Below, piece by piece: positions 6,737 through 37,266 of a DNA stretch of 64,000 bases. The position numbers were made by a program, and so were the translations under genes. The DNA comes from a virus (lineage: Duplodnaviria > Caudoviricetes). Below the pieces are notes generated by a model. It did no database searches. It saw only the letters and a program-made list of their open reading frames with translations, and was not told where the DNA came from. Position 1 is the stretch's first letter. Each line of letters opens with the position of its first letter. The stretch is taken from positions 1-64,000 of IMG/VR virus record IMGVR_UViG_3300043432_000484; one strand, written 5' to 3'.

Positions 6737-6811
6737 GCTGGAGTAGCTCAGACTGGATAGAGTCAGGTAGTGCTAATACCTGCGTCGCGGGTTCGAGTCC
6801 CGCCTCCAGCG
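6737..6811 (+). tRNA. tRNA with GCT anticodon (nominal Ser), non-canonical short variable loop
   Basis: Acceptor GCTGGAG/CTCCAGC, D arm GCTC/GAGT, anticodon stem AGGTA/TACCT with loop GTGCTAA, variable loop GCGTC, T arm GCGGG-TTCGAGT-CCCGC, discriminator G, no encoded CCA. Confidence 0.85.
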
Positions 6812-6873
6812 CGTCTTACACCGACCGAGGGCCGATCACCATCACTGGGATCGGCCCTTAGCCGTTATGGTGC

Positions 6874-27743: not shown

Positions 27744-27902
27744 CGAGAAGTCCTCGTTACAGGCGAACTCATAAAAGAAAACCGGTACTGGGCAAAGACC
27801 CGGAAAAACTCCCTTGTGAAAACGCTCCGGGTAGAGGTCATCTAACCGGAGCGTTCTATGCCGTAAAACCGATAGTCCAACAGTTGCAAGGAGCCTTTTG
27901 CA

Positions 27903-28007
27903 GTGGAGCGTCGACCAAAACTGACTCCACCGCGGATAGGGACCTTGCGTCCTTTTTCAATTACGCTGGGCCATAAGGAAAAAACCAGCGAAAACGTAGG
28001 AGGCTAA
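27903..28007 (+). CDS. Putative leader peptide (34 aa)
   Basis: AAGGAG RBS then GTG; MERRPKLTPPRIGTLRPFSITLGHKEKTSENVGG; TAA lies 3 nt before the next ATG. Confidence 0.35.
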   Translation: MERRPKLTPPRIGTLRPFSITLGHKEKTSENVGG

Positions 28008-28010
28008 GCC

Positions 28011-28088
28011 ATGGAAATCCGTGTAGCTATAGTCCTATGGGTCACCTGGGTGTTGATACCCGTTGTTGTGATCCTTTCTTCGGTGTAA
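28011..28088 (+). CDS. Small hydrophobic single-TM peptide (25 aa), type I toxin-like
   Basis: Perfect AGGAGG RBS 7 nt upstream; MEIRVAIVLWVTWVLIPVVVILSSV; hairpin follows. Confidence 0.55.
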   Translation: MEIRVAIVLWVTWVLIPVVVILSSV

Positions 28089-28097
28089 TATAAACCG

Positions 28098-28117
28098 GCC
28101 CCAGCTTTGTCTGGGGC
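28098..28117 (-). terminator. Intrinsic terminator hairpin between convergent peptide and HNH genes
   Basis: GCCCCAG-6 nt-CTGGGGC; followed on the - strand by CGG then TTTATATT. Confidence 0.55.
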
Positions 28118-28121
28118 TTAA

Positions 28122-29222
28122 CTAAGCCCAGTTCTCTCCGCGCTTGAGCTTTCCAACCAGAGACAGGCAAATCCCAAACTGCTCGGACACCTTCCTATAA
28201 GGGGTGCGTAGAGCTAACAGGGCACGAATTTCTCGGACCTTCTCCGCGTCCAGCTTCCCCGAGCGCTCAGATGGTCGGCGTGAACGATTGTGCTCAGTTT
28301 GGGTCATCCAACGGCAGTTAGCACCCCAGCCCTTCTCTAAGCACTCAGGACAGTGCCCGCAGCTGTAGTGCCCATTGTGGTCCAAGCGGCCCATGGTGTG
28401 CTTCTTTGATGGCTTCACCCCAACATCTGCCAGGAACCCTTCAAAGTTTCCCAACCACCACCGGCACATCGTGATCCCCACGGCCCCATAGCGAGCGTAA
28501 CCATCGTGGTTGACGTTGAAACAACGCGTCTTGATCGCGCTCCAAGTCTTGTATTCGGGTGTTTGAGTTGAACCGTGCGTGGCGTTAGCGTGCGTTGAAC
28601 CAGAAGGGTACGGACGCTGATTGGCGCGTTGCTCCTTCTTGGTAGCCCAGCGACAGTTCTCTTTCGAGTATGGGCCGTCGTTGTCGATTCTATCCAGGGA
28701 GTGCTGTGAGCTTGGGCGCGGCCCCATATCGGCATAGAAGCGGGGGAAGCAGTCGATCCATTCGGGACTGATGGTGATGCCACGTCCGCCCCAGCGGGGA
28801 TAATTCGAGCTGCGTGGGTTGAGGCACCTATCCTTCATACCGATCCACGATTGATACTCTTTCGTGTGGATCATCCCATGTTTGAAGTTGGTCTTACGCG
28901 TATGATCAACCTCCCGCAACGCCGCCCCTGACGTCCCATCAGCCCTTCGATTCGCGGCCTGCTCTTCCCACGTCGCCCAGCGAACATTGCTAGGCACGTA
29001 TCCCGCGTCGTTGTCGATGCGATCCAGTGAATGACCCTCGGAAGGACGTGGACCGACATGCCTCAGGAATGCAAGAAAATCGTCCGCCCACTCAGGAGCG
29101 ATCGTGATCCCACGCCCACCATAATGCGGAAAAGCCCGATGATTTGGGTTCAAACACCGGGCCTTGATCTGCTGCCAGCAGCGATACTCAGGAGTCCTAC
29201 TTAGGTTGTGCTTGAGGTACAT
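28122..29222 (-). CDS. Homing endonuclease with three tandem HNH domains and C-terminal HTH
   Basis: T.EY..W..[IM]K.RC...YG..GIT...RP/KP...H[ST]..R.D....Y...N[VC]RW.T occurs three times; start ATG 29222, 9 nt after GGTGTA. Confidence 0.8.
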   Translation of the reverse strand: MYLKHNLSRTPEYRCWQQIKARCLNPNHRAFPHYGGRGITIAPEWADDFLAFLRHVGPRPSEGHSLDRIDNDAGYVPSNVRWATWEEQAANRRADGTSGAALREVDHTRKTNFKHGMIHTKEYQSWIGMKDRCLNPRSSNYPRWGGRGITISPEWIDCFPRFYADMGPRPSSQHSLDRIDNDGPYSKENCRWATKKEQRANQRPYPSGSTHANATHGSTQTPEYKTWSAIKTRCFNVNHDGYARYGAVGITMCRWWLGNFEGFLADVGVKPSKKHTMGRLDHNGHYSCGHCPECLEKGWGANCRWMTQTEHNRSRRPSERSGKLDAEKVREIRALLALRTPYRKVSEQFGICLSLVGKLKRGENWA

Positions 29223-29273
29223 GCGTACCACTACACCAACCATAGAAAGAGTTTGAACACATTTTGAAAGTGC

Positions 29274-29906
29274 CTAAAGGCAACGGTCTACGCCCCTATT
29301 AGCCCACTGAGGCAAACTGACCGCTCTAAGAATGTTGAATTTTTTGGAAGAAATGGAAGAAAAGATTTTCTCGTAAGGACGGTATTTCTCATCCGTTTCG
29401 GCGTGACCCTTCAGTCTCTCCACCGCCTTGAAGAACCGGTGCCGGACGCGTCCTTGGGTCAGGTTGAGCATGTTCGCTACTTCACTCTGGCAGGTTGTCT
29501 GCCACATCCCCACCAGGATGTTGATGTCGATGGCTTCGAAGATGTCCTCCAGGTCAGCGCGCAGCTCCTCTTCAGTCACAGTAGGGATTGCCAGCAAAAA
29601 CTTGATTCTCTGGATTCCCCGGTCCAACCGATAGCTGATGGCTGCCTGAGTTACGTCGAATATCTCGGCAATATCTGCTTGTCTCTTTTTGCATACATAG
29701 TACAGATAAATCAGATCGGCCTCCCTTTCCGGAATCCGATCCAGCAAAGGGGCTACTCGGGTTTCGTAATCCCCACTGCTGAAGAGAGCCGCCATTGAGT
29801 CCTCTGGCAGCTCTTCCGGGACCTCATCGTCAAGCAGTGTGTCGTGAGATGCGAAGCGATTAGCAAGCTCGGCGGGGTCTACTGGAATCACGTATCCACT
29901 GGACAT
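29274..29906 (-). CDS. Sigma70 region 4-like transcription factor with two tandem HTH domains
   Basis: LDRIPEREADLIYLYY...QADIAEIFDVTQAAISYRLDRG and QSEVANMLNLTQGRVRHRFFKAVERLK. Confidence 0.7.
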   Translation of the reverse strand: MSSGYVIPVDPAELANRFASHDTLLDDEVPEELPEDSMAALFSSGDYETRVAPLLDRIPEREADLIYLYYVCKKRQADIAEIFDVTQAAISYRLDRGIQRIKFLLAIPTVTEEELRADLEDIFEAIDINILVGMWQTTCQSEVANMLNLTQGRVRHRFFKAVERLKGHAETDEKYRPYEKIFSSISSKKFNILRAVSLPQWANRGVDRCL

Positions 29907-29949: not shown

Positions 29950-31623
29950 TCAGCCGGCCTTTGCTGGGAAGAAGGCCTGCAGGATGGACTCTGGCTTGAT
30001 CTCCAGGGACTTGATCCTGACCTCCGCCTCGGTTTGATCTGGGTTCGATCTGATCTCGGTGAACGGCACCTGCTGAAGTGCCATCAGCTGGGTGTTCAGC
30101 CGCACCTGCGCCTCCGATGCGCGCAGGTTACTGGCATGAGTCTTGCTCATACCAGCCAAATTCGATTTGAATAGAGTGTCTACATCCCCATACATCTTGA
30201 TCACCTTGCTGGCAGTCTTAAGCCCAAAATTGGGGACCCCGGGAATGTGATCAGATGTATCGCCGCTGAGAGCGCGCAACTGCACGAGGGATGCCGGAGG
30301 CACCCCGTACTCGGCTGTCACAAGGTTCGGATCGTAGAGTTTTTCCGTACCGGCACCTACAGCTGGGCACAATTGGTGGGTAGACTCGGACACGACCTGC
30401 AACAGATCTCTGTCCGAAGTCACAAGAATATTAGGAGAATATTGAAGGGGTCCCCAAGCAAGAGACGCCATCACATCGTCGGCTTCCTCGGACGGGTTCC
30501 AAGCTTGGTGGACACCGAGTTTTGGGAGCGTCTCCCTAAGCCAATCCCATCCGAATGCAGGCTCGCCCGAGCGGGACGCTCGATTACCCTTGTAGCCCTC
30601 ATACATGGCCTTTCGACGCTGAGAGCTGCCATCCCAGCACACGTAGATGGTGGCTGCCGGGAAGCGCTTCCTATAGGCCCCCAAGGCGCGCAGAAACCCG
30701 ACGACCGGGCCGGTCACACGCCCCTGGCTATCCGATAGAGAGCCAAGCCCGGGGGCCGACGCGCAGCGAATGAAGAGTTGGGTGCCGTCTACGATGAGGT
30801 TCAAATTGTCAGTTGAGGTCATCTGTTGTACATCTCTGTATATATTTAGCATTCGGCGACAAGCCGAGTTCAGAAGGGTCATCTCCTTATAGCAATGGAG
30901 CAACCCTGATATGTCAGGAATGGCAGAAGCAGACCCTGTGATCTGCCCAAGAATGGACACCGCTCGGTCCAGCATGGCCAAGGTTTTTTGCTGGCTCAGG
31001 ATGCCCTCCATCCGCTCCTTAGGCCAGAGTGCGACCTTACGGGCTCCGGAGGTCCAGGCGCTGAGCTTCTTGAAGCGCTCCCTGTGCTTAGTGTACGGGG
31101 ATTTGGATTCAAGATGAAGGAAGGCGCGGGGTAGGGTCACCAATCTATCGGTGGATCTCAACTGAATGTGGACCACCACAGAATCATGCTCTTGGATCTC
31201 ATCGGCCACTAAGGCCTTGATGTTCTTGTATGGCCCACTAGAGATCATGACGGTATCCCCGACCTCTATGCCCTGATCTACCTCAACTATGATCTGTGCA
31301 CGGAGTTTCTCGATCTGCTCCGATGTCACGGTGGCAAGCTTCCTGTCCTTCTTGGTTCCGGAGGAGACGTAGAGTGGGTTCTGAACGAACTTCGTCTCTT
31401 CCAGCCGAGAATAGTGAGAGTCAGGGTGCTTGTGCAGAATGAAGGCGTAGCCTTCTACGAGATACTGGTACTCTCGAACTGGACCTCTCTGGACCACAGA
31501 CGCCGGAATGAAAACCTCGGCGTCCCTGATATGGTGACGGATCGAGGCCCTGATGATATCAGGGTCCTCCCCATCTGCCTTAGAAGTCAGCTCCAACACT
31601 ACCCACGGAAGATCTTGAATCAT
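29950..31623 (-). CDS. NusG-like (NGN+KOW) domain fused to a 5'-3' exonuclease (PolA-N/FEN family)
   Basis: N-terminal WVVL...EVFIP...EGYAFI and KOW IEVGDTVMISSGPYKN; C-terminal LIVDG, CWDG, RKAMYEGYKGNR, EADD, TSDRDLLQ, GDTSDHIPGVPNFGLKTA. Confidence 0.85.
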   Translation of the reverse strand: MIQDLPWVVLELTSKADGEDPDIIRASIRHHIRDAEVFIPASVVQRGPVREYQYLVEGYAFILHKHPDSHYSRLEETKFVQNPLYVSSGTKKDRKLATVTSEQIEKLRAQIIVEVDQGIEVGDTVMISSGPYKNIKALVADEIQEHDSVVVHIQLRSTDRLVTLPRAFLHLESKSPYTKHRERFKKLSAWTSGARKVALWPKERMEGILSQQKTLAMLDRAVSILGQITGSASAIPDISGLLHCYKEMTLLNSACRRMLNIYRDVQQMTSTDNLNLIVDGTQLFIRCASAPGLGSLSDSQGRVTGPVVGFLRALGAYRKRFPAATIYVCWDGSSQRRKAMYEGYKGNRASRSGEPAFGWDWLRETLPKLGVHQAWNPSEEADDVMASLAWGPLQYSPNILVTSDRDLLQVVSESTHQLCPAVGAGTEKLYDPNLVTAEYGVPPASLVQLRALSGDTSDHIPGVPNFGLKTASKVIKMYGDVDTLFKSNLAGMSKTHASNLRASEAQVRLNTQLMALQQVPFTEIRSNPDQTEAEVRIKSLEIKPESILQAFFPAKAG

Positions 31624-31661: not shown

Positions 31662-33098
31662 TCAACCTGGGCGACGTTTTTTATACCACCGCTCGAAACT
31701 TTCCTTCCACTCGATGGGGGTCATGTTACTCTTGGTCCCCTTCTTCTGTCTGGGAGAGAAGTCTGGGGGCGGGGAACTGCGCTGCCTCTGCAGTGGCCGG
31801 TTGATTACCGCGGCCTCTATCTCGGTTGGCTCAGTGGGGTCAATGTACGAAGCCGGTATCGATGGGGTAGTTTGCTGGGCTGGCTTTGGCGGAGGGGCCT
31901 GTACTTTGGCTGGAGACTGAGCCACGGGTACGGATGGTTGGGGCTCGGGCGCAGCCTCAGGGAGTGAAGGTTCTGGCGCAGCTTGAATCTCAGCCACTGA
32001 GGGTGCCGGGGTTGCAGTCCCCATGAAGATCACGGGAGGTTGGGGTCCTTCAGAAGGCAGGTTCCCCTTGTTCTGAGAGAACTCTAGGATGTCACATTGC
32101 AAGGCGTTCTTGGTGGTATCCCTGGACCTGGCCAGAAACCATCTAGCAAACCTGGTCACATGGTTCTGGTACTTGGCGTAGACCTGCTCTGCTAGGGCCT
32201 TATCCACTTGGGAGAAGTCATGAACCATGCGGTGGGCCGTGCGGAAGCTATTCATAGCGGCCTCGGCCAATCCTGAAGCCACATCCTCAGGAGTCTCAAT
32301 CTCGCAAGCCTGGTCCAGTACTCTGAAAGCTTCAGTGGGGTTGTCCAAAGAGAGCAACAGTTGGTAGTGGATCGTAACTGAAGGCAGGTGAAGATGGTCG
32401 CGAACAGACGACGCTCTGATCGGACCGATCTGGGCTATCGCTTCCAGGGTGTTGATGACATCCCGGATGTGCCCTCCCTGATGGTCAATGACCGTCAGCA
32501 CCGCCTCATCCTCATACTGGACAGATTGGGAGTCCAGTATGATCCTCATCCGCTCTAGAATCTTCTCCCTCGGAACCTTGCGTATGGGGTACTCCTCGCA
32601 CCTGGAGCGGATGGCACCACGGAGCTTCTCGACTTCCGTGGTGCAAAACATCCCCACCATCCGCTTCTCTTCGAGTGGCTTGAGCAGAGCATCCTGAGCT
32701 GTTTTGCTCATGCTCTGAGCCTCGTCAAAGAGGTAGATGCGCTTTGGGGCGTTCTCCAGAACGCATGGAAGGATCTCGATGATGGCTCGAACCTCGTCCG
32801 CTGAGGCCTGGTTGGCAGAATCCCTCTCGCTATAAGCGCTCGGCTGCTCCTGTAGAATCGCCTTACAGTTATCACACTCGTTACAAGGTTCCGGGTCCTT
32901 GAGGTTGATGTTCAGGCAGAGCATGGCCCGAGCATGAATGCGCCCCAGCGTTGTCTTCCCGCGGCCGTGACGACCTGAGAAGACATAGCTTGTGTCGAAC
33001 GCAGTCTTGTTCCGGATGCGGGCTTTGAGCAACTCAACATTGCCCTCTTGCCCTAGGACATCAGCGTAACGAAGAGGTCTGTAAAGGGTATCCCACAC
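31662..33098 (-). CDS. dnaX: DNA polymerase III clamp loader gamma/tau subunit
   Basis: YRP..ADVLGQ, GRHGRGKTT, PCNECDNC, FDEAQ, ALLKPLEE, IRSRC; Pro-rich tail. Confidence 0.9.
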   Translation of the reverse strand: MWDTLYRPLRYADVLGQEGNVELLKARIRNKTAFDTSYVFSGRHGRGKTTLGRIHARAMLCLNINLKDPEPCNECDNCKAILQEQPSAYSERDSANQASADEVRAIIEILPCVLENAPKRIYLFDEAQSMSKTAQDALLKPLEEKRMVGMFCTTEVEKLRGAIRSRCEEYPIRKVPREKILERMRIILDSQSVQYEDEAVLTVIDHQGGHIRDVINTLEAIAQIGPIRASSVRDHLHLPSVTIHYQLLLSLDNPTEAFRVLDQACEIETPEDVASGLAEAAMNSFRTAHRMVHDFSQVDKALAEQVYAKYQNHVTRFARWFLARSRDTTKNALQCDILEFSQNKGNLPSEGPQPPVIFMGTATPAPSVAEIQAAPEPSLPEAAPEPQPSVPVAQSPAKVQAPPPKPAQQTTPSIPASYIDPTEPTEIEAAVINRPLQRQRSSPPPDFSPRQKKGTKSNMTPIEWKESFERWYKKRRPG

Positions 33099-35370: not shown

Positions 35371-36040
35371 GGTTATTCTCTCGTTGAAGGTGGAGCAGTC
35401 TTGAACCATCCGGAGCCTCTACAGGTCTAGCGTGGTAGCGCACATCAGCATGCTCCATGAAGGATGCCTTGTGGGTGATCAGGAAGATCGAGATACCAGT
35501 CTTTTTGGCCAGCTCCTGCAGGAACAGGCTGGTCGATTCTATGTACTCGTCAGACACCGCGGCCAATGTCTCATCTAAGACAAGAAGGGGCCACTTGTTC
35601 AAGCGCCTCATTGCCAGTACCTTCAGAATCAATGATGCGATGCTAGCCGGACCTCCTCCGAACGCCTCCAAGGGGTGAGCACGGATCGACATCCTCTTGT
35701 CATCTTGACGTAGGAAGAAATCGATGGCGATCTTGTTGTAACGTTGGGAGACCTCGGCCTCGAATGTCAGCGCCTGATCCACAAAGATGGAGCGCAGGCC
35801 CTCTGTGACGACTCCCTCGATCGAGCGTACATGATCCAAAACAAGGCGATCCATCAGAGCCCTGAACAGCTCTCCCACCTTAGTCAAGGTGTCCAAGCGA
35901 TCAGACAGGACCTCTACCTCCTTGGTGCGGGAGGAGAGATCCTGCTGTAGCTTTTTCCTAAGGGCCTGAAGTTCGGTAGCCGTCTCGGAGACGGCGCTCA
36001 CTCTCAGTCGATGCTCGGAGCGTATCTGGTCACTTTGCAT
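35360..36040 (-). CDS. SbcC/Rad50-like ATPase, C-terminal half
   Basis: Coiled coil, then signature-like FGGG, Walker B LLVLDE, H-loop ITH. Confidence 0.8.
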   Translation of the reverse strand: MQSDQIRSEHRLRVSAVSETATELQALRKKLQQDLSSRTKEVEVLSDRLDTLTKVGELFRALMDRLVLDHVRSIEGVVTEGLRSIFVDQALTFEAEVSQRYNKIAIDFFLRQDDKRMSIRAHPLEAFGGGPASIASLILKVLAMRRLNKWPLLVLDETLAAVSDEYIESTSLFLQELAKKTGISIFLITHKASFMEHADVRYHARPVEAPDGSRLLHLQRENNHAV

Positions 36041-37266
36041 TGGTGGGCCTCGCCTTCAAGTTTAGCCCCGATGCCCCCTACGGTACCATCGTTGCCAAGG
36101 CAGAATGTATCGATGGTGCGGAGCATGAACCGATCCCTCGGGCGCTTGTCGTCAGCCGGAATGACCTTAATGTGGAACCCCACCTTGTCCCCTTGGATGC
36201 CTTGGAACATGTCAATCATGTGGTCCACGTTCACATTGATTGACAGCGGGGAGGTGACTCGGACTTCCACTTTCTCTGTGGACACCGGCTCACTTTTGTT
36301 CGTGTTGTTCTCATCCGCACTTGAGAAGTGGAATGACAGATCCGATGGGTCGAAGTGCATGCGAGCCTTGACCTTGTCCTTTTGAGGAGAGCGGATGAAC
36401 TTCAGCTCATTGACCATGTCCTCGGGATTCACCAAGACCACCACCTCATCAGACTTGGCGGAGTAATACATGAACTTGGAGTACTCCGAAGAATGCTTAG
36501 GCCAGCCAAACACGTCCCCCTGACTGTTCAGCACGTAGGACTTTTTGTCCGTGGTATAGATGTGGACGTTACCCGTGGAGCGTCCTAGGAAGGCTTTGAA
36601 CATCCCCAAATGCAGCTGCGGAAGGGTGAGACCACAATCGATGAAGGCGGGGCAGTGGAAGTAACAAATCTCCTTGTTGTTGGAGGAGATCATATACCCA
36701 TTGGCCTTCTGAGCCAATTCGGGGTCGTCATTCCCAAAGATCTTGACGGTCTTGTAGAACTCTTGGTCCACCGAGTCAGTCTTCTTGGGTAGGAACGGCT
36801 CCGTAGTTCCAATCGCAAACTGAAGTACCGGGATCGAGAACTCCTTGGGCTGGATCGTGTCCTGAGCCGCCTTGATGTCTCGCTCGAAGTTGTACATCTC
36901 CCTGGGGTCGAACGACACCAAGTCCTCCTTACCGGAGGTACCGAAGGAGTACCCGACCTTAAACGCGCCATTGGTTTCGGTAGCCTTGAACGAGATGCTT
37001 GAGGCCTTGATGTACCCGAAACGGGCCACATACTCAGCGGGGAACATGAACTGCCCCTCCCCTTCAACGTTGGAGATTGGGAACGAAGAGCGCGCCTCAT
37101 GCTTGGTGCTGTCCCGCGAGTACAGGGTGCACTCTTGCCCCTGTACCGAAAAGAGGTAGCCCCCTCCTCCGCCCTGAGATGTGGCTTGAGGGGTCACGAT
37201 CGAAACTACCCCAATCGCGCGTCGCAGCTCACTCGTGTCTACTGTGAAAGAGATTTCCATGTTCAT
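36004..37266 (-). CDS. Probable DNA polymerase III beta sliding clamp (divergent)
   Basis: About 420 aa alpha/beta repeats, FTVD..EL..AI..V start, clamp-like C-terminus; clamp loader genes in the same block. Confidence 0.55.
   Translation of the reverse strand: MNMEISFTVDTSELRRAIGVVSIVTPQATSQGGGGGYLFSVQGQECTLYSRDSTKHEARSSFPISNVEGEGQFMFPAEYVARFGYIKASSISFKATETNGAFKVGYSFGTSGKEDLVSFDPREMYNFERDIKAAQDTIQPKEFSIPVLQFAIGTTEPFLPKKTDSVDQEFYKTVKIFGNDDPELAQKANGYMISSNNKEICYFHCPAFIDCGLTLPQLHLGMFKAFLGRSTGNVHIYTTDKKSYVLNSQGDVFGWPKHSSEYSKFMYYSAKSDEVVVLVNPEDMVNELKFIRSPQKDKVKARMHFDPSDLSFHFSSADENNTNKSEPVSTEKVEVRVTSPLSINVNVDHMIDMFQGIQGDKVGFHIKVIPADDKRPRDRFMLRTIDTFCLGNDGTVGGIGAKLEGEAHQCKVTRYAPSID

What the first reader, a model, noticed from the sequence alone, without database searches (positions are those of the whole stretch)
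29950..31623. NusG-like transcription factor fused to a 5'-3' exonuclease
Seen: one continuous 557-aa ORF with an NGN-like N-terminus (WVVL...EVFIP...EGYAFI), a KOW motif (IEVGDTVMISSGPYKN), a helical linker, then a PolA-N/FEN-type 5'-3' nuclease with its acidic motifs intact (LIVDG, CWDG, EADD, SDRD, GDTSDHIPG). Known: NusG NGN domains bind the RNAP clamp, and FEN-type nucleases remove RNA primers and 5' flaps. I know of no characterised protein joining the two. Inference: an RNAP-tethered nuclease could act as a torpedo-type terminator, resolve R-loops, or couple late transcription to lagging-strand processing, analogous to clamp-dependent T4 late transcription.
Basis: partly seen in the sequence, partly recalled or inferred. 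Interest (0 to 1): 0.85.

Follow-up and report, generated by a model that had tools for sequence, protein, structure and literature searches.

The report
Huge-phage NusG fused to flap nuclease
An uncultured very large freshwater phage, like dozens of relatives, joins a copy of the RNA-polymerase-riding factor NusG to its only DNA flap nuclease in one protein, always next to a sigma-region-4 gene, which points to an undescribed and testable link between phage transcription and DNA replication.

Summary
Window 29950-31623 (minus strand) is one uninterrupted 557-aa ORF with four parts:
- a NusG-type NGN+KOW module (aa 1-175);
- a poorly conserved three-helix linker (176-270);
- a complete Pol I-type 5'-3' exonuclease/FEN with every acidic motif (276-518);
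- a short tail with a conserved L-x-A-F-F island.

The NusG assignment rests on co-linear sub-threshold HMM hits and on a confident model (pLDDT 91) whose 46 best PDB matches are nearly all NusG/RfaH/Spt5.

The fusion is not an assembly accident.
- Of the distinct related IMG/VR sequences placed on a tree, 40 carry the fused gene, 3 a gene split exactly at the linker/FEN border, and 21 a stand-alone NusG-like gene with no FEN.
- All 79 loci fetched share one gene block: Toprim, metallopeptidase, dnaX, NusG-like, sigma-region-4 protein.
- In near-complete relatives the fused gene is the only FEN.
- The replicase there is a family-A polymerase without a 5' nuclease domain, and no phage RNA polymerase is detectable.

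Function is inferred. Most likely a host-RNAP-riding phage NusG paralogue delivers the flap nuclease/RNase H to transcription complexes. A T4-like clamp-RNAP bridge remains open, and a torpedo terminator is the least likely reading.

I found no paper describing it. This scan has already reported the same family on at least seven other genomes.

The parts
31279..31623 (-). NGN domain of the NusG-like module (aa 1-115)
   Evidence: AF2 strands and helices 7-115. Foldseek matches to NusG/RfaH/Spt5. The G-Y-x-F strand motif (L55 G58 Y59 F61 invariant) aligns with FPGYVF of Thermotoga NusG.
31099..31278 (-). KOW domain (aa 116-175)
   Evidence: Pfam KOW 16.1 bits and KOW5_SPT5 17.1 bits, both below cut-off. 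AF2 five-strand barrel at 124-173. Foldseek to the M. tuberculosis NusG CTD 2mi6, TM 0.81 by target. This is the most conserved part of the family, 65% mean pairwise identity.
30814..31098 (-). Helical linker (aa 176-270), the shortest length class in the family
   Evidence: AF2 helices 176-198, 202-232 and 239-269. Only 22% mean identity. Lengths fall in classes of 92-98, 127-137 and 153-179 aa. No informative look-alike in the protein atlas.
30304..30798 (-). 5'-3' exonuclease N-terminal (PIN/resolvase-like) catalytic domain (aa 276-440)
   Evidence: PF02739 E 1.3e-22, with the same coordinates from the genome search. Aligns to M. smegmatis Pol I 6vde at 3e-26 and to Taq at 5.6e-21. D279, D331, E379, E380, D382, D383 and D406 are invariant in 43 relatives.
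30070..30303 (-). H3TH / SAM-fold DNA-binding domain of the nuclease (aa 441-518)
   Evidence: PF01367 E 1.4e-16. The G454-D455-x-S457-D458 motif is invariant.
29968..30003 (-). Conserved C-terminal island E-I-K-P-E-S-I-L-Q-A-F-F (aa 541-552), a candidate partner-binding (clamp-type) motif
   Evidence: Family consensus [VI]-K-P-[DE]-x-[IL]-L-x-A-F-F, with F551 in 40/43, F552 in 41/43 and L548 in 37/43, inside an otherwise variable tail. Absent from the stand-alone NusG-like proteins. Function not shown.
29274..29906 (-). Downstream partner gene: 210-aa protein with sigma-70 region-4 HTH units
   Evidence: PF04545 9.7e-16, two stretches. Directly downstream of the NusG-like gene in nearly all of the 79 loci; L007 has about 1.6 kb between them. 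Read through into one 840-aa protein in P0082.
31662..33098 (-). Upstream gene: DnaX (tau/gamma)-like clamp-loader subunit
   Evidence: PF13177 1e-20 and phrog_5846 1e-45. Directly upstream in all 79 loci.
36004..37266 (-). Phage beta-type sliding clamp (420 aa), the possible partner of the C-terminal motif
   Evidence: phrog_947 1.2e-6. AF2 pLDDT 94.7, pTM 0.91. Foldseek 1e-16, TM 0.68-0.78 to bacterial DnaN clamps.

Best explanation
The gene encodes a phage-specific NusG paralogue that carries the phage's only flap endonuclease as a covalently tethered cargo.

Shown:
- an NGN+KOW module with the NusG fold;
- a variable-length helical tether;
- a Pol I-type 5' nuclease with all catalytic carboxylates;
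- conservation of this arrangement across a deep radiation of huge phages;
- constant pairing with a sigma-region-4 gene;
- no detectable phage RNA polymerase, and a family-A DNA polymerase that lacks its own 5' nuclease domain.

Inferred:
- The NGN binds the host RNAP beta' clamp helices and gate loop, as all NGN domains do. It is probably loaded at phage promoters together with, or in succession to, the sigma-4 protein.
- It works as a processivity/antitermination factor for phage operons.
- In this clade it also places the FEN/RNase-H activity beside the upstream fork of the transcription bubble. There the nuclease can cut 5' RNA or DNA flaps and degrade RNA:DNA hybrids: R-loops behind RNAP, and transcripts used as primers when replisome and RNAP meet.
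- The same nuclease can still serve Okazaki-fragment maturation.
For: Architecture and fold.

Link to bona fide NusG through intermediates: stand-alone relatives found with the N-terminus reach the Pfam NusG gathering score (P0216 25.1, P0242 27.5, P0196 30.1, P0190 25.7 plus KOW 26.6).

Conservation:
- 246 full-length hits, the best 120 almost all carrying both halves, on contigs up to 549 kb.
- 79 IMG/VR loci share the block Toprim, metallopeptidase, dnaX, NusG-like(+FEN), sigma-4.
- On the NGN-KOW tree the FEN-bearing proteins form one clade (SH-aLRT 100) with only two secondary fissions.
- NGN, KOW and FEN are 54-65% identical across the family, against 22% for the linker.

Transcription link: P0082 is a natural NusG-FEN-sigma4 read-through, and P0178 joins a sigma r2+r4 factor to the same NusG-like module. 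The NusG review PMC7819879 states that NGN and sigma use the same RNAP site and compete.

Genome context in five 87-100% complete relatives:
- The fused (or adjacent split) gene is the only PF02739 hit in the three FEN-clade genomes; the two stand-alone-clade genomes have none.
- No RNAP beta, beta' or T7-type RNAP.
- One family-A polymerase of about 1000 aa without a 5' nuclease domain.
Against: - No binding or activity has been measured, and RNAP binding is inferred from fold and family only. The window protein itself stays below every curated NusG cut-off.
- The sister clade keeps the NusG-like/sigma-4 pair without any FEN, so the nuclease is dispensable for the core transcription role.
- Two lineages have split the gene again at the domain border, so covalent linkage is not strictly required.
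- A Met lies within 12 residues upstream of the FEN domain in 32 of 43 relatives. A free nuclease isoform may therefore exist.
- The host is unknown.
Confidence: 0.5

Rival explanations
1. Clamp-RNAP bridge. The C-terminal LxAFF island binds the phage beta clamp while the NGN binds RNAP. DNA-loaded clamps at nicks and forks then recruit or activate RNAP, with the sigma-4 protein, on late promoters. This would be an independently evolved analogue of T4 gp45/gp33/gp55 replication-coupled late transcription.
For: - The conserved short hydrophobic C-terminal island sits in a variable tail. By established knowledge it resembles PIP-box and beta-binding motifs, and FEN1 binds PCNA through a C-terminal PIP box.
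- The phage encodes its own DnaN-fold clamp and tau/delta/delta'-like loader.
- The gene lies last-but-two in the replication gene run, just upstream of the structural block.
- A sigma-region-4 partner is always adjacent.
Against: - The stand-alone clade has the same NusG-like/sigma-4 pair but no FEN and no LxAFF tail. Such coupling cannot be the ancestral function of the pair.
- No other ORF of the 132-kb record ends in the same motif. The termini of the relatives' family-A polymerases do not carry it either.
- The motif lacks the Q that is typical of bacterial clamp-binding motifs.
Confidence: 0.17
2. Fusion without functional coupling. The NusG-like part acts in transcription and the FEN acts only at the replisome (primer and flap removal for a polymerase that lacks a 5' nuclease). 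They share a polypeptide merely because neighbouring genes lost the intervening stop.
For: - The gene has been split again twice at the exact domain border without loss of either half.
- The linker is poorly conserved and of variable length.
- A Met enriched upstream of the FEN domain could give a free nuclease.
- The sister clade does without a FEN.
- P0082 shows that read-through fusions with the next gene do arise here.
Against: - The fusion is kept in 40 of 43 distinct FEN-bearing lineages, down to about 35-40% identity.
- The FEN is found nowhere else in three 87-100% complete genomes of the FEN clade.
- The linker always persists, in steps of about 35 aa, rather than shrinking to nothing. 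That looks like a maintained tether.
Confidence: 0.2
3. Torpedo-type terminator. RNAP-tethered 5'-3' degradation of the nascent transcript dislodges RNAP, as with archaeal FttA bound to Spt5 or eukaryotic Rat1/Xrn2.
For: A NusG-family factor holding a 5'-3' nuclease on a transcription complex has a precedent in the FttA-Spt4/5-TEC structure (PMC11616081; 9bct among the fold hits).
Against: - The nuclease is a Pol I-type FEN with an H3TH duplex-DNA-binding domain. By established knowledge, members of that family act on flaps and on hybrids next to duplex DNA, not on free single-stranded RNA.
- Nothing here would create the 5' entry site.
- NusG paralogues encoded by mobile elements are usually antiterminators.
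Confidence: 0.06
4. The NGN-KOW module has been re-purposed and no longer binds RNAP. It might, for example, tether the nuclease to the replisome, to SSB or to the ribosome.
For: The window protein scores below the curated NusG thresholds. The gene sits in a replication gene run next to dnaX.
Against: - The hallmark NGN strand motif and the KOW are the best conserved parts of the protein.
- The module is always next to a sigma-4 gene, and it occurs fused to a complete sigma factor.
- Stand-alone relatives pass the Pfam NusG threshold.
Confidence: 0.05

Closest known systems
Specialised bacterial NusG paralogues (RfaH, LoaP, UpxY, ActX/TaA) and housekeeping NusG/Spt5
   Same: Two-domain NGN+KOW core. 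Co-linear HMM matches to nusG, LoaP, UpxY and RfaH models. Fold matches to NusG/RfaH/Spt5 in RNAP complexes. Encoded by a mobile genome next to a dedicated partner gene, as UpxY is with UpxZ.
   Different: Scores below all curated cut-offs. Carries about 380 extra residues: a helical tether and a complete 5' nuclease. No nuclease-bearing NusG paralogue is mentioned in two NusG reviews or found by the other searches. The recruitment signal is unknown, and the KOW is predicted as a beta-barrel with no sign of an RfaH-type helical state.
Pol I 5'-3' exonuclease domain and stand-alone bacterial/phage FENs (Taq and M. smegmatis Pol I N-domains, FenA, ExoIX/Xni, SPO1-like phage exonucleases)
   Same: PF02739+PF01367 above cut-off, all metal-binding carboxylates present, H3TH present. 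It serves a phage whose family-A polymerase lacks this domain.
   Different: It is attached to a transcription-factor module rather than to a polymerase or standing alone. It also has an extra conserved LxAFF tail.
Archaeal FttA (aCPSF1) bound to Spt4/5 on the elongation complex
   Same: A NusG/Spt5-family factor holds a 5'-3' nuclease on RNAP (PMC11616081).
   Different: FttA is a beta-CASP ribonuclease bound non-covalently to the Spt5 KOW. Here the nuclease is a DNA-flap/RNase-H-type FEN joined covalently. There is no evidence for termination.
T4 late transcription (gp45 clamp, gp33 co-activator, gp55 sigma-like)
   Same: A phage with its own clamp and loader, a partial sigma-like protein, and a possible clamp-binding tail on an RNAP-associated protein at the replication/late-gene border.
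   Different: No homology to gp33 or gp55. The clamp is DnaN-type rather than gp45/PCNA-type. Clamp binding is not shown. The sister clade lacks the tail and the nuclease.
Stand-alone phage NusG-like proteins (BFVD entries annotated NusG or RfaH; phrog_6386)
   Same: Phage-encoded NGN+KOW proteins of 146-241 aa are the best viral fold matches, at 9e-9 to 2e-6. 21 distinct stand-alone sequences (27 loci) occupy the same genomic slot in the sister clade.
   Different: None of them carries a nuclease. They share only 28-36% identity with this N-terminus.

Membership tests
NusG/Spt5 family | NGN domain fold | tested here: met
   AF2 model of aa 1-275, pLDDT 91.1. Nearly all 46 Foldseek PDB hits at E<=1e-3 are NusG/RfaH/Spt5 chains, best 1.7e-8.
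NusG/Spt5 family | C-terminal KOW beta-barrel following the NGN | tested here: met
   Five strands at 124-173. 2mi6 NusG CTD TM 0.81 by target. The KOW motif G-D-x-V-x-I-x-S-G-P-Y is present. Pfam KOW 16.1 bits, below the 22.3 cut-off.
NusG/Spt5 family | Sequence score over curated thresholds (PF02357 22.2 bits; TIGR00922 135.7 bits) | tested here: not met
   No PF02357 hit at E<=1. TIGR00922 30.3 bits on aa 1-179. Stand-alone relatives found with the N-terminus at E 1e-11 to 1e-16 do pass PF02357, at 25-30 bits.
NusG/Spt5 family | Binding to the RNAP beta' clamp helices and beta gate loop | not testable with these tools
   Host unknown and no coordinates available. Only the conserved G-Y-x-F strand and the association with sigma genes speak for it.
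RfaH-type specialised paralogue | Sequence-specific recruitment (ops-like) and a fold-switching, autoinhibitory C-terminal domain | not tested
   The KOW is predicted as a barrel. No recruitment element was searched for.
Pol I-type 5'-3' exonuclease / FEN (PF02739 + PF01367) | Both Pfam domains over the gathering score, in order | tested here: met
   80.7 bits (cut-off 34.3) and 61.1 bits (cut-off 40).
Pol I-type 5'-3' exonuclease / FEN (PF02739 + PF01367) | Metal-binding carboxylate clusters (DG, xDG, EADD, DxD, GDxSD) | tested here: met
   They align with the corresponding motifs of Taq and M. smegmatis Pol I. D279, D331, E379, E380, D382, D383, D406, D455 and D458 are invariant and D404 is at least 90% conserved in 43 relatives.
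Pol I-type 5'-3' exonuclease / FEN (PF02739 + PF01367) | Flap endonuclease / 5'-3' exonuclease activity | not testable with these tools
   Needs an enzyme assay.
T4-type clamp-coupled late transcription | Phage-encoded sliding clamp and clamp loader | tested here: met
   DnaN-fold clamp at 36004-37266. DnaX-, delta- and delta'-like genes.
T4-type clamp-coupled late transcription | Clamp-binding motif on the RNAP-bound factor, with binding to the clamp | tested here: inconclusive
   A conserved LxAFF island exists, but nothing shows that it binds the clamp.
T4-type clamp-coupled late transcription | Homology to gp33/gp55 | tested here: not met
   The partner gene matches sigma-70 region 4, not gp33 or gp55. 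No sigma region-2 hit passed the cut-off in five relatives.

The most novel reading that the evidence does not exclude
The protein is a three-way adaptor. Its NGN binds host RNAP, its C-terminal LxAFF tail binds the phage's own beta clamp, and the adjacent sigma-4 protein supplies promoter contact. Clamps left on replicated or nicked phage DNA would then switch on late transcription, while the tethered FEN processes the same nicks. This would be a replication-coupled late-gene switch built from NusG and sigma parts, convergent with T4 gp45/gp33/gp55.
Probability: 0.15. Interest if true: 0.9.

Novelty: new variant of a known kind. Interest (0 to 1): 0.68.

Why it matters
NusG/Spt5 is the only transcription factor family conserved in all life. 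Its KOW end normally recruits partners non-covalently: Rho, the ribosome, FttA. Here a DNA-replication/repair nuclease is welded to it, in a whole clade of 300-600 kb phages that lack their own RNA polymerase.

If the NGN rides host RNAP, this is a natural experiment in physically coupling transcription with flap or R-loop processing, or with the sliding clamp. It is directly testable with two purified domains.

The finding also defines a conserved regulatory pair (NusG-like + sigma-region-4 protein) at the replication/late-gene border of huge phages, whose gene regulation is essentially unknown. It gives a clean evolutionary series for dissecting what the fusion adds: stand-alone, fused, re-split, and fused on to sigma.

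Tried and rejected
- Complex prediction of the phage clamp dimer with the C-terminal 60 residues gave no verdict: score 0.01, controls not run. It is evidence neither for nor against binding.
The genomic context of P0082 and P0178 therefore could not be read, and I cannot exclude that the P0082 read-through is an assembly or sequencing error.
- Literature: 'NusG + exonuclease + huge phages', 'NusG + jumbo phage' and 'phage-encoded NusG' gave no papers. 'NusG + flap endonuclease + fused + phage' gave one irrelevant paper. Two NusG reviews mention no phage-encoded or nuclease-fused form.
- The look-up of sequencing runs listed no RNA holder, so there is no expression evidence either way.
- The LxAFF-type motif was sought at the C-termini of all ORFs of at least 100 aa in the 132-kb record, and only this gene has it. 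It was also sought in the family-A polymerases of five relatives and not found.
- The atlas search of the linker gave only generic helical-bundle look-alikes.
- Pfam searches of five near-complete relatives found no RNAP beta (PF00562), beta' (PF00623), T7-type RNAP (PF00940; its control rang nowhere, so that result is weak), Pol III alpha (PF07733) or PolB (PF00136). No sigma region 2 (PF04542) passed the cut-off. Very divergent phiKZ-type RNAP subunits could escape these models.
- GenBank phages hold no fused homologue. Only the C-terminal half matches phage exonucleases at about 30% identity, and one uncultured 485-kb phage has the stand-alone form.
- Reference prokaryote genomes gave only two tiny contigs in candidate-phyla-radiation MAGs, probably mis-binned phage.
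- I considered the idea that the split genes are ancestral and rejected it: on the tree they nest inside the fused clade.
Full report
OBSERVATION.
The window holds one ORF at 29950-31623 on the minus strand: 557 aa, ATG start, no internal stop.

The C-terminal half is a Pol I-type 5'-3' exonuclease.
- PF02739 covers aa 276-440 (80.7 bits against a cut-off of 34.3). PF01367 covers 441-518 (61.1 against 40).
- It matches the NCBIfam Pol I models at 4e-42 over their first ~245 positions.
- It aligns to the 5' nuclease of M. smegmatis Pol I (6vde, 3e-26) and of Taq polymerase (5.6e-21). The DG, xDG, EADD, DxD and GDxSD carboxylate clusters are all in place.

The N-terminal 179 aa stays below every curated threshold but hits only NusG-family models, co-linearly.
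- TIGR00922 nusG 3e-7 (model positions 33-155 of 172), LoaP 1.6e-5, UpxY 4e-5, RfaH 0.01.
- phrog_6386 'transcription antiterminator' 2e-5.
- PDB Thermotoga NusG 2lq8 at 3.6e-4. In that alignment the family's G-Y-A-F strand lies on FPGYVF.

An AlphaFold2 model of aa 1-275, built with 43 relatives, reaches pLDDT 91.1. It shows an alpha/beta NGN (7-115), a five-strand KOW barrel (124-173) and three long helices (176-269). Nearly all of its 46 Foldseek hits in the PDB at E<=1e-3 are NusG, RfaH or Spt5 chains, many of them in RNAP complexes.

IS THE FUSION REAL AND CONSERVED?
- The word-indexed protein search gave 246 hits. The best 120 are 370-840 aa, and almost all begin with the same W-V-V-L-E-L ... 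E-V-F-I-P ... G-Y-A-F N-terminus and carry both exonuclease Pfam domains. They lie on contigs up to 549 kb; the window's own contig is 340,944 bp. IMG already auto-names some of them '5'-3' exonuclease/transcription antitermination factor NusG'.
- Contigs from an independent freshwater-sediment run and from a wetland run lie on parts of the gene, including the linker/FEN junction, without indels.
- In IMG/VR I fetched 79 loci and mapped the neighbours with phmmer. Every locus has the same block: two small ORFs, Toprim, phage metallopeptidase, DnaX-like clamp loader, NusG-like gene, sigma-region-4 gene.
- In loci L001-L052 the NusG-like gene carries the linker and FEN (555-679 aa). In three of these (L025, L040, L047) it is split into two ORFs exactly at the linker/FEN border. 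L025 has an ATGA stop/start overlap; L047 has an A7 run at the junction.
- In loci L053-L079 the slot holds a stand-alone NusG-like gene of 177-228 aa with no FEN.
- A maximum-likelihood tree of the distinct NGN-KOW parts, window included, has 40 fused, 3 split and 21 stand-alone rows. It separates stand-alone from FEN-bearing proteins by a branch with SH-aLRT 100. The split genes sit at two places inside the fused clade, so they are secondary fissions.

FAMILY ANATOMY.
- Mean pairwise identity is 54% (NGN), 65% (KOW), 56% (nuclease core), 54% (H3TH), 22% (linker) and 37% (tail).
- Linker lengths fall into classes of 92-98, 127-137 and 153-179 aa, that is steps of about 35 aa. The window protein belongs to the shortest class. 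The atlas search of the linker gave only generic helical look-alikes.
- The variable tail contains one conserved island, [VI]-K-P-[DE]-x-[IL]-L-x-A-F-F, with the two Phe in 40 and 41 of 43 sequences. The stand-alone NusG-like proteins lack it.
- D279, D331, E379, E380, D382, D383, D406, D455 and D458 are invariant.

LINK TO TRANSCRIPTION.
- A phmmer search of 1.8 billion representatives with aa 1-179 found 243 proteins. About 54 hit at E<1e-30, most of them about 600 aa (the others shorter, perhaps fragments). A tail of 165-190-aa stand-alone proteins follows.
- Several stand-alone proteins pass the Pfam NusG gathering score (25-30 bits against 22.2), and one passes KOW as well. This ties the module to bona fide NusG through intermediates.
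- Two other architectures were found. P0178 is a sigma-70 region 2 + region 4 protein followed by a repeat linker and the same NusG-like module. P0082 is a NusG-FEN protein read straight through into the sigma-4 protein.
- The NusG review PMC7819879 states that all NGN domains contact the beta' clamp helices and the beta gate loop, that this site overlaps the sigma site, and that the two compete. A sigma-related partner next to, or fused to, a NusG-like module fits loading at the promoter followed by hand-over.

GENOME CONTEXT.
- The held record is a 132,754-bp IMG/VR fragment that CheckV rates 28% complete, so I used five 87-100% complete relatives of 417-619 kb.
- In the three genomes of the FEN clade, the NusG-linked gene is the only PF02739 hit. 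The two genomes of the stand-alone clade have none.
- None of the five has a detectable RNAP beta, beta' or T7-type polymerase, Pol III alpha or PolB. The control for the T7-type model rang nowhere, so that negative is weak.
- All five have one family-A polymerase of about 1000 aa (longer in G005) without a 5' nuclease domain.
- The window also encodes tau-, delta- and delta'-like clamp-loader subunits, NAD ligase, a RecD2-type helicase, RecA, SbcCD parts, RNR, GroEL and RtcB.
- A 420-aa ORF at 36004-37266 has no Pfam hit, but its model (pLDDT 94.7) matches bacterial beta clamps at 1e-16, TM 0.68-0.78.
- The NusG-FEN and sigma-4 genes are the last regulators before a triple-HNH gene, a terminator-like hairpin (28117-28098, minus strand) and the structural block.
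- The nearest GenBank phage is an unannotated 485-kb uncultured phage, LR745208.1 (TerL 47%), which has the stand-alone form. The nearest cultured one is Tunturiibacter phage Tunturi_5 (TerL 27%).
- Reference prokaryote genomes hold only two tiny, probably mis-binned contigs.

HOW IT MOST LIKELY WORKS.
Shown: the domain identities, the intact active site, the tether, the conserved pairing with sigma-4, the single origin and long retention of the fusion, and its status as the phage's only FEN beside a polymerase that lacks one.

Inferred: the NGN rides host RNAP as a phage-specific processivity/antitermination factor, as mobile-element NusG paralogues do. [quoted passage not shown] There a 5' RNA flap at an R-loop, or a transcript used as a primer, is a natural FEN/RNase-H substrate. 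I give this 0.5.

Rivals:
- Fusion of convenience with independent functions (0.2). It is supported by the two re-splits and by a Met within 12 residues upstream of the FEN domain in 32 of 43 relatives.
- A T4-like clamp-RNAP bridge through the LxAFF tail (0.17).
- A torpedo terminator in the manner of FttA-Spt5 (0.06; PMC11616081). The H3TH-bearing Pol I-type nuclease disfavours it.
- A re-purposed module that does not bind RNAP (0.05).

COMPARISON AND NOVELTY.
Each half belongs to a known family; the membership tests are listed separately. The NusG half meets the fold criteria but not the curated sequence thresholds. Phage-encoded stand-alone NusG-like proteins exist in BFVD. I found no paper describing a NusG-nuclease fusion or this huge-phage NusG/sigma-4 pair.

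This scan has already reported the same family on at least seven other genomes, with the same reading.
- the stand-alone sister clade in the same slot, without any FEN;
- the tree showing one origin and two fissions;
- the linker length classes;
- the conserved C-terminal island;
- the DnaN-fold clamp;
- the two sigma fusions.

I rate it a new variant of a known kind, interest 0.68.

Noticed in passing
window 29274-29906 (-): The 210-aa sigma-region-4 protein directly downstream of the NusG-like gene in nearly all of the 79 loci (L007 has about 1.6 kb between them). It has a conserved N-terminus (G-Y-V-I-P-V-D-P-x-E-L-A-N-R-F) and C-terminus (F-N-I-L-R-E-V-x-L-P-Q-W). No sigma region 2 passed the cut-off in five near-complete relatives.
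   Followed up: partly
P0178 and P0082 (proteins): Two further architectures of the same NusG-like module. P0178 is sigma-70 r2+r4 + repeat linker + NusG-like (541 aa). P0082 is NusG-FEN read through into the sigma-4 protein (840 aa).
   Followed up: partly
window 36004-37266 (-): A 420-aa ORF with no Pfam hit is a DnaN-fold beta sliding clamp (AF2 pLDDT 94.7; Foldseek 1e-16 to bacterial clamps).
   Followed up: yes
window 30814-31098 (-) and alignment A3: Linker lengths across the family fall into three classes (about 95, 131 and 168 aa), that is steps of about 35 aa. This suggests gain and loss of a helical repeat unit. The window has the shortest form.
   Followed up: partly
window 30820-30822 (-), Met268; alignment A3: A Met lies within 12 residues upstream of the FEN domain in 32 of 43 relatives. 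The naturally split genes start near there. A FEN-only isoform from an internal start is possible, but no clear Shine-Dalgarno sequence is seen in the window.
   Followed up: partly
L047:3660-3720; L025:8920-8960; L040:8950-9140: Three relatives have the gene split at the linker/FEN border. L025 has an ATGA overlap. L047 has an A7 run at the junction, which could be a slippage site or a sequencing error. L040 has a 160-nt overlap of frames.
   Followed up: partly
window 28122-29243 (-) and 28098-28117 (-): A 373-aa protein made of three tandem HNH-endonuclease-like units (phrog_3377, three stretches). It is present downstream of sigma-4 in only some relatives, so it is probably mobile. A terminator-like GC hairpin follows it, and then the 27744-28097 non-coding gap before the structural genes.
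   Followed up: no
L084-L088 (family-A polymerases of five relatives): The replicative polymerase is a roughly 1000-aa PolA (longer in G005) without a 5' nuclease domain. Several of them have acidic N-termini with D-F-L-D-D-L or T-L-A-F-L-G-L type motifs, which could be partner-binding peptides.
   Followed up: no
G000 (record holding the window): IMG/VR classes the 132,754-bp record as a 'provirus' cut from a 340,944-bp contig, with CheckV completeness 28%. Gene content and relatives (417-619 kb, one with terminal repeats) fit a lytic-type huge phage fragment rather than an integrated prophage.
   Followed up: no
window 6737-6812 (+): ARAGORN finds a single tRNA-Ser (GCT) gene, antisense to the surrounding structural genes.
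   Followed up: no
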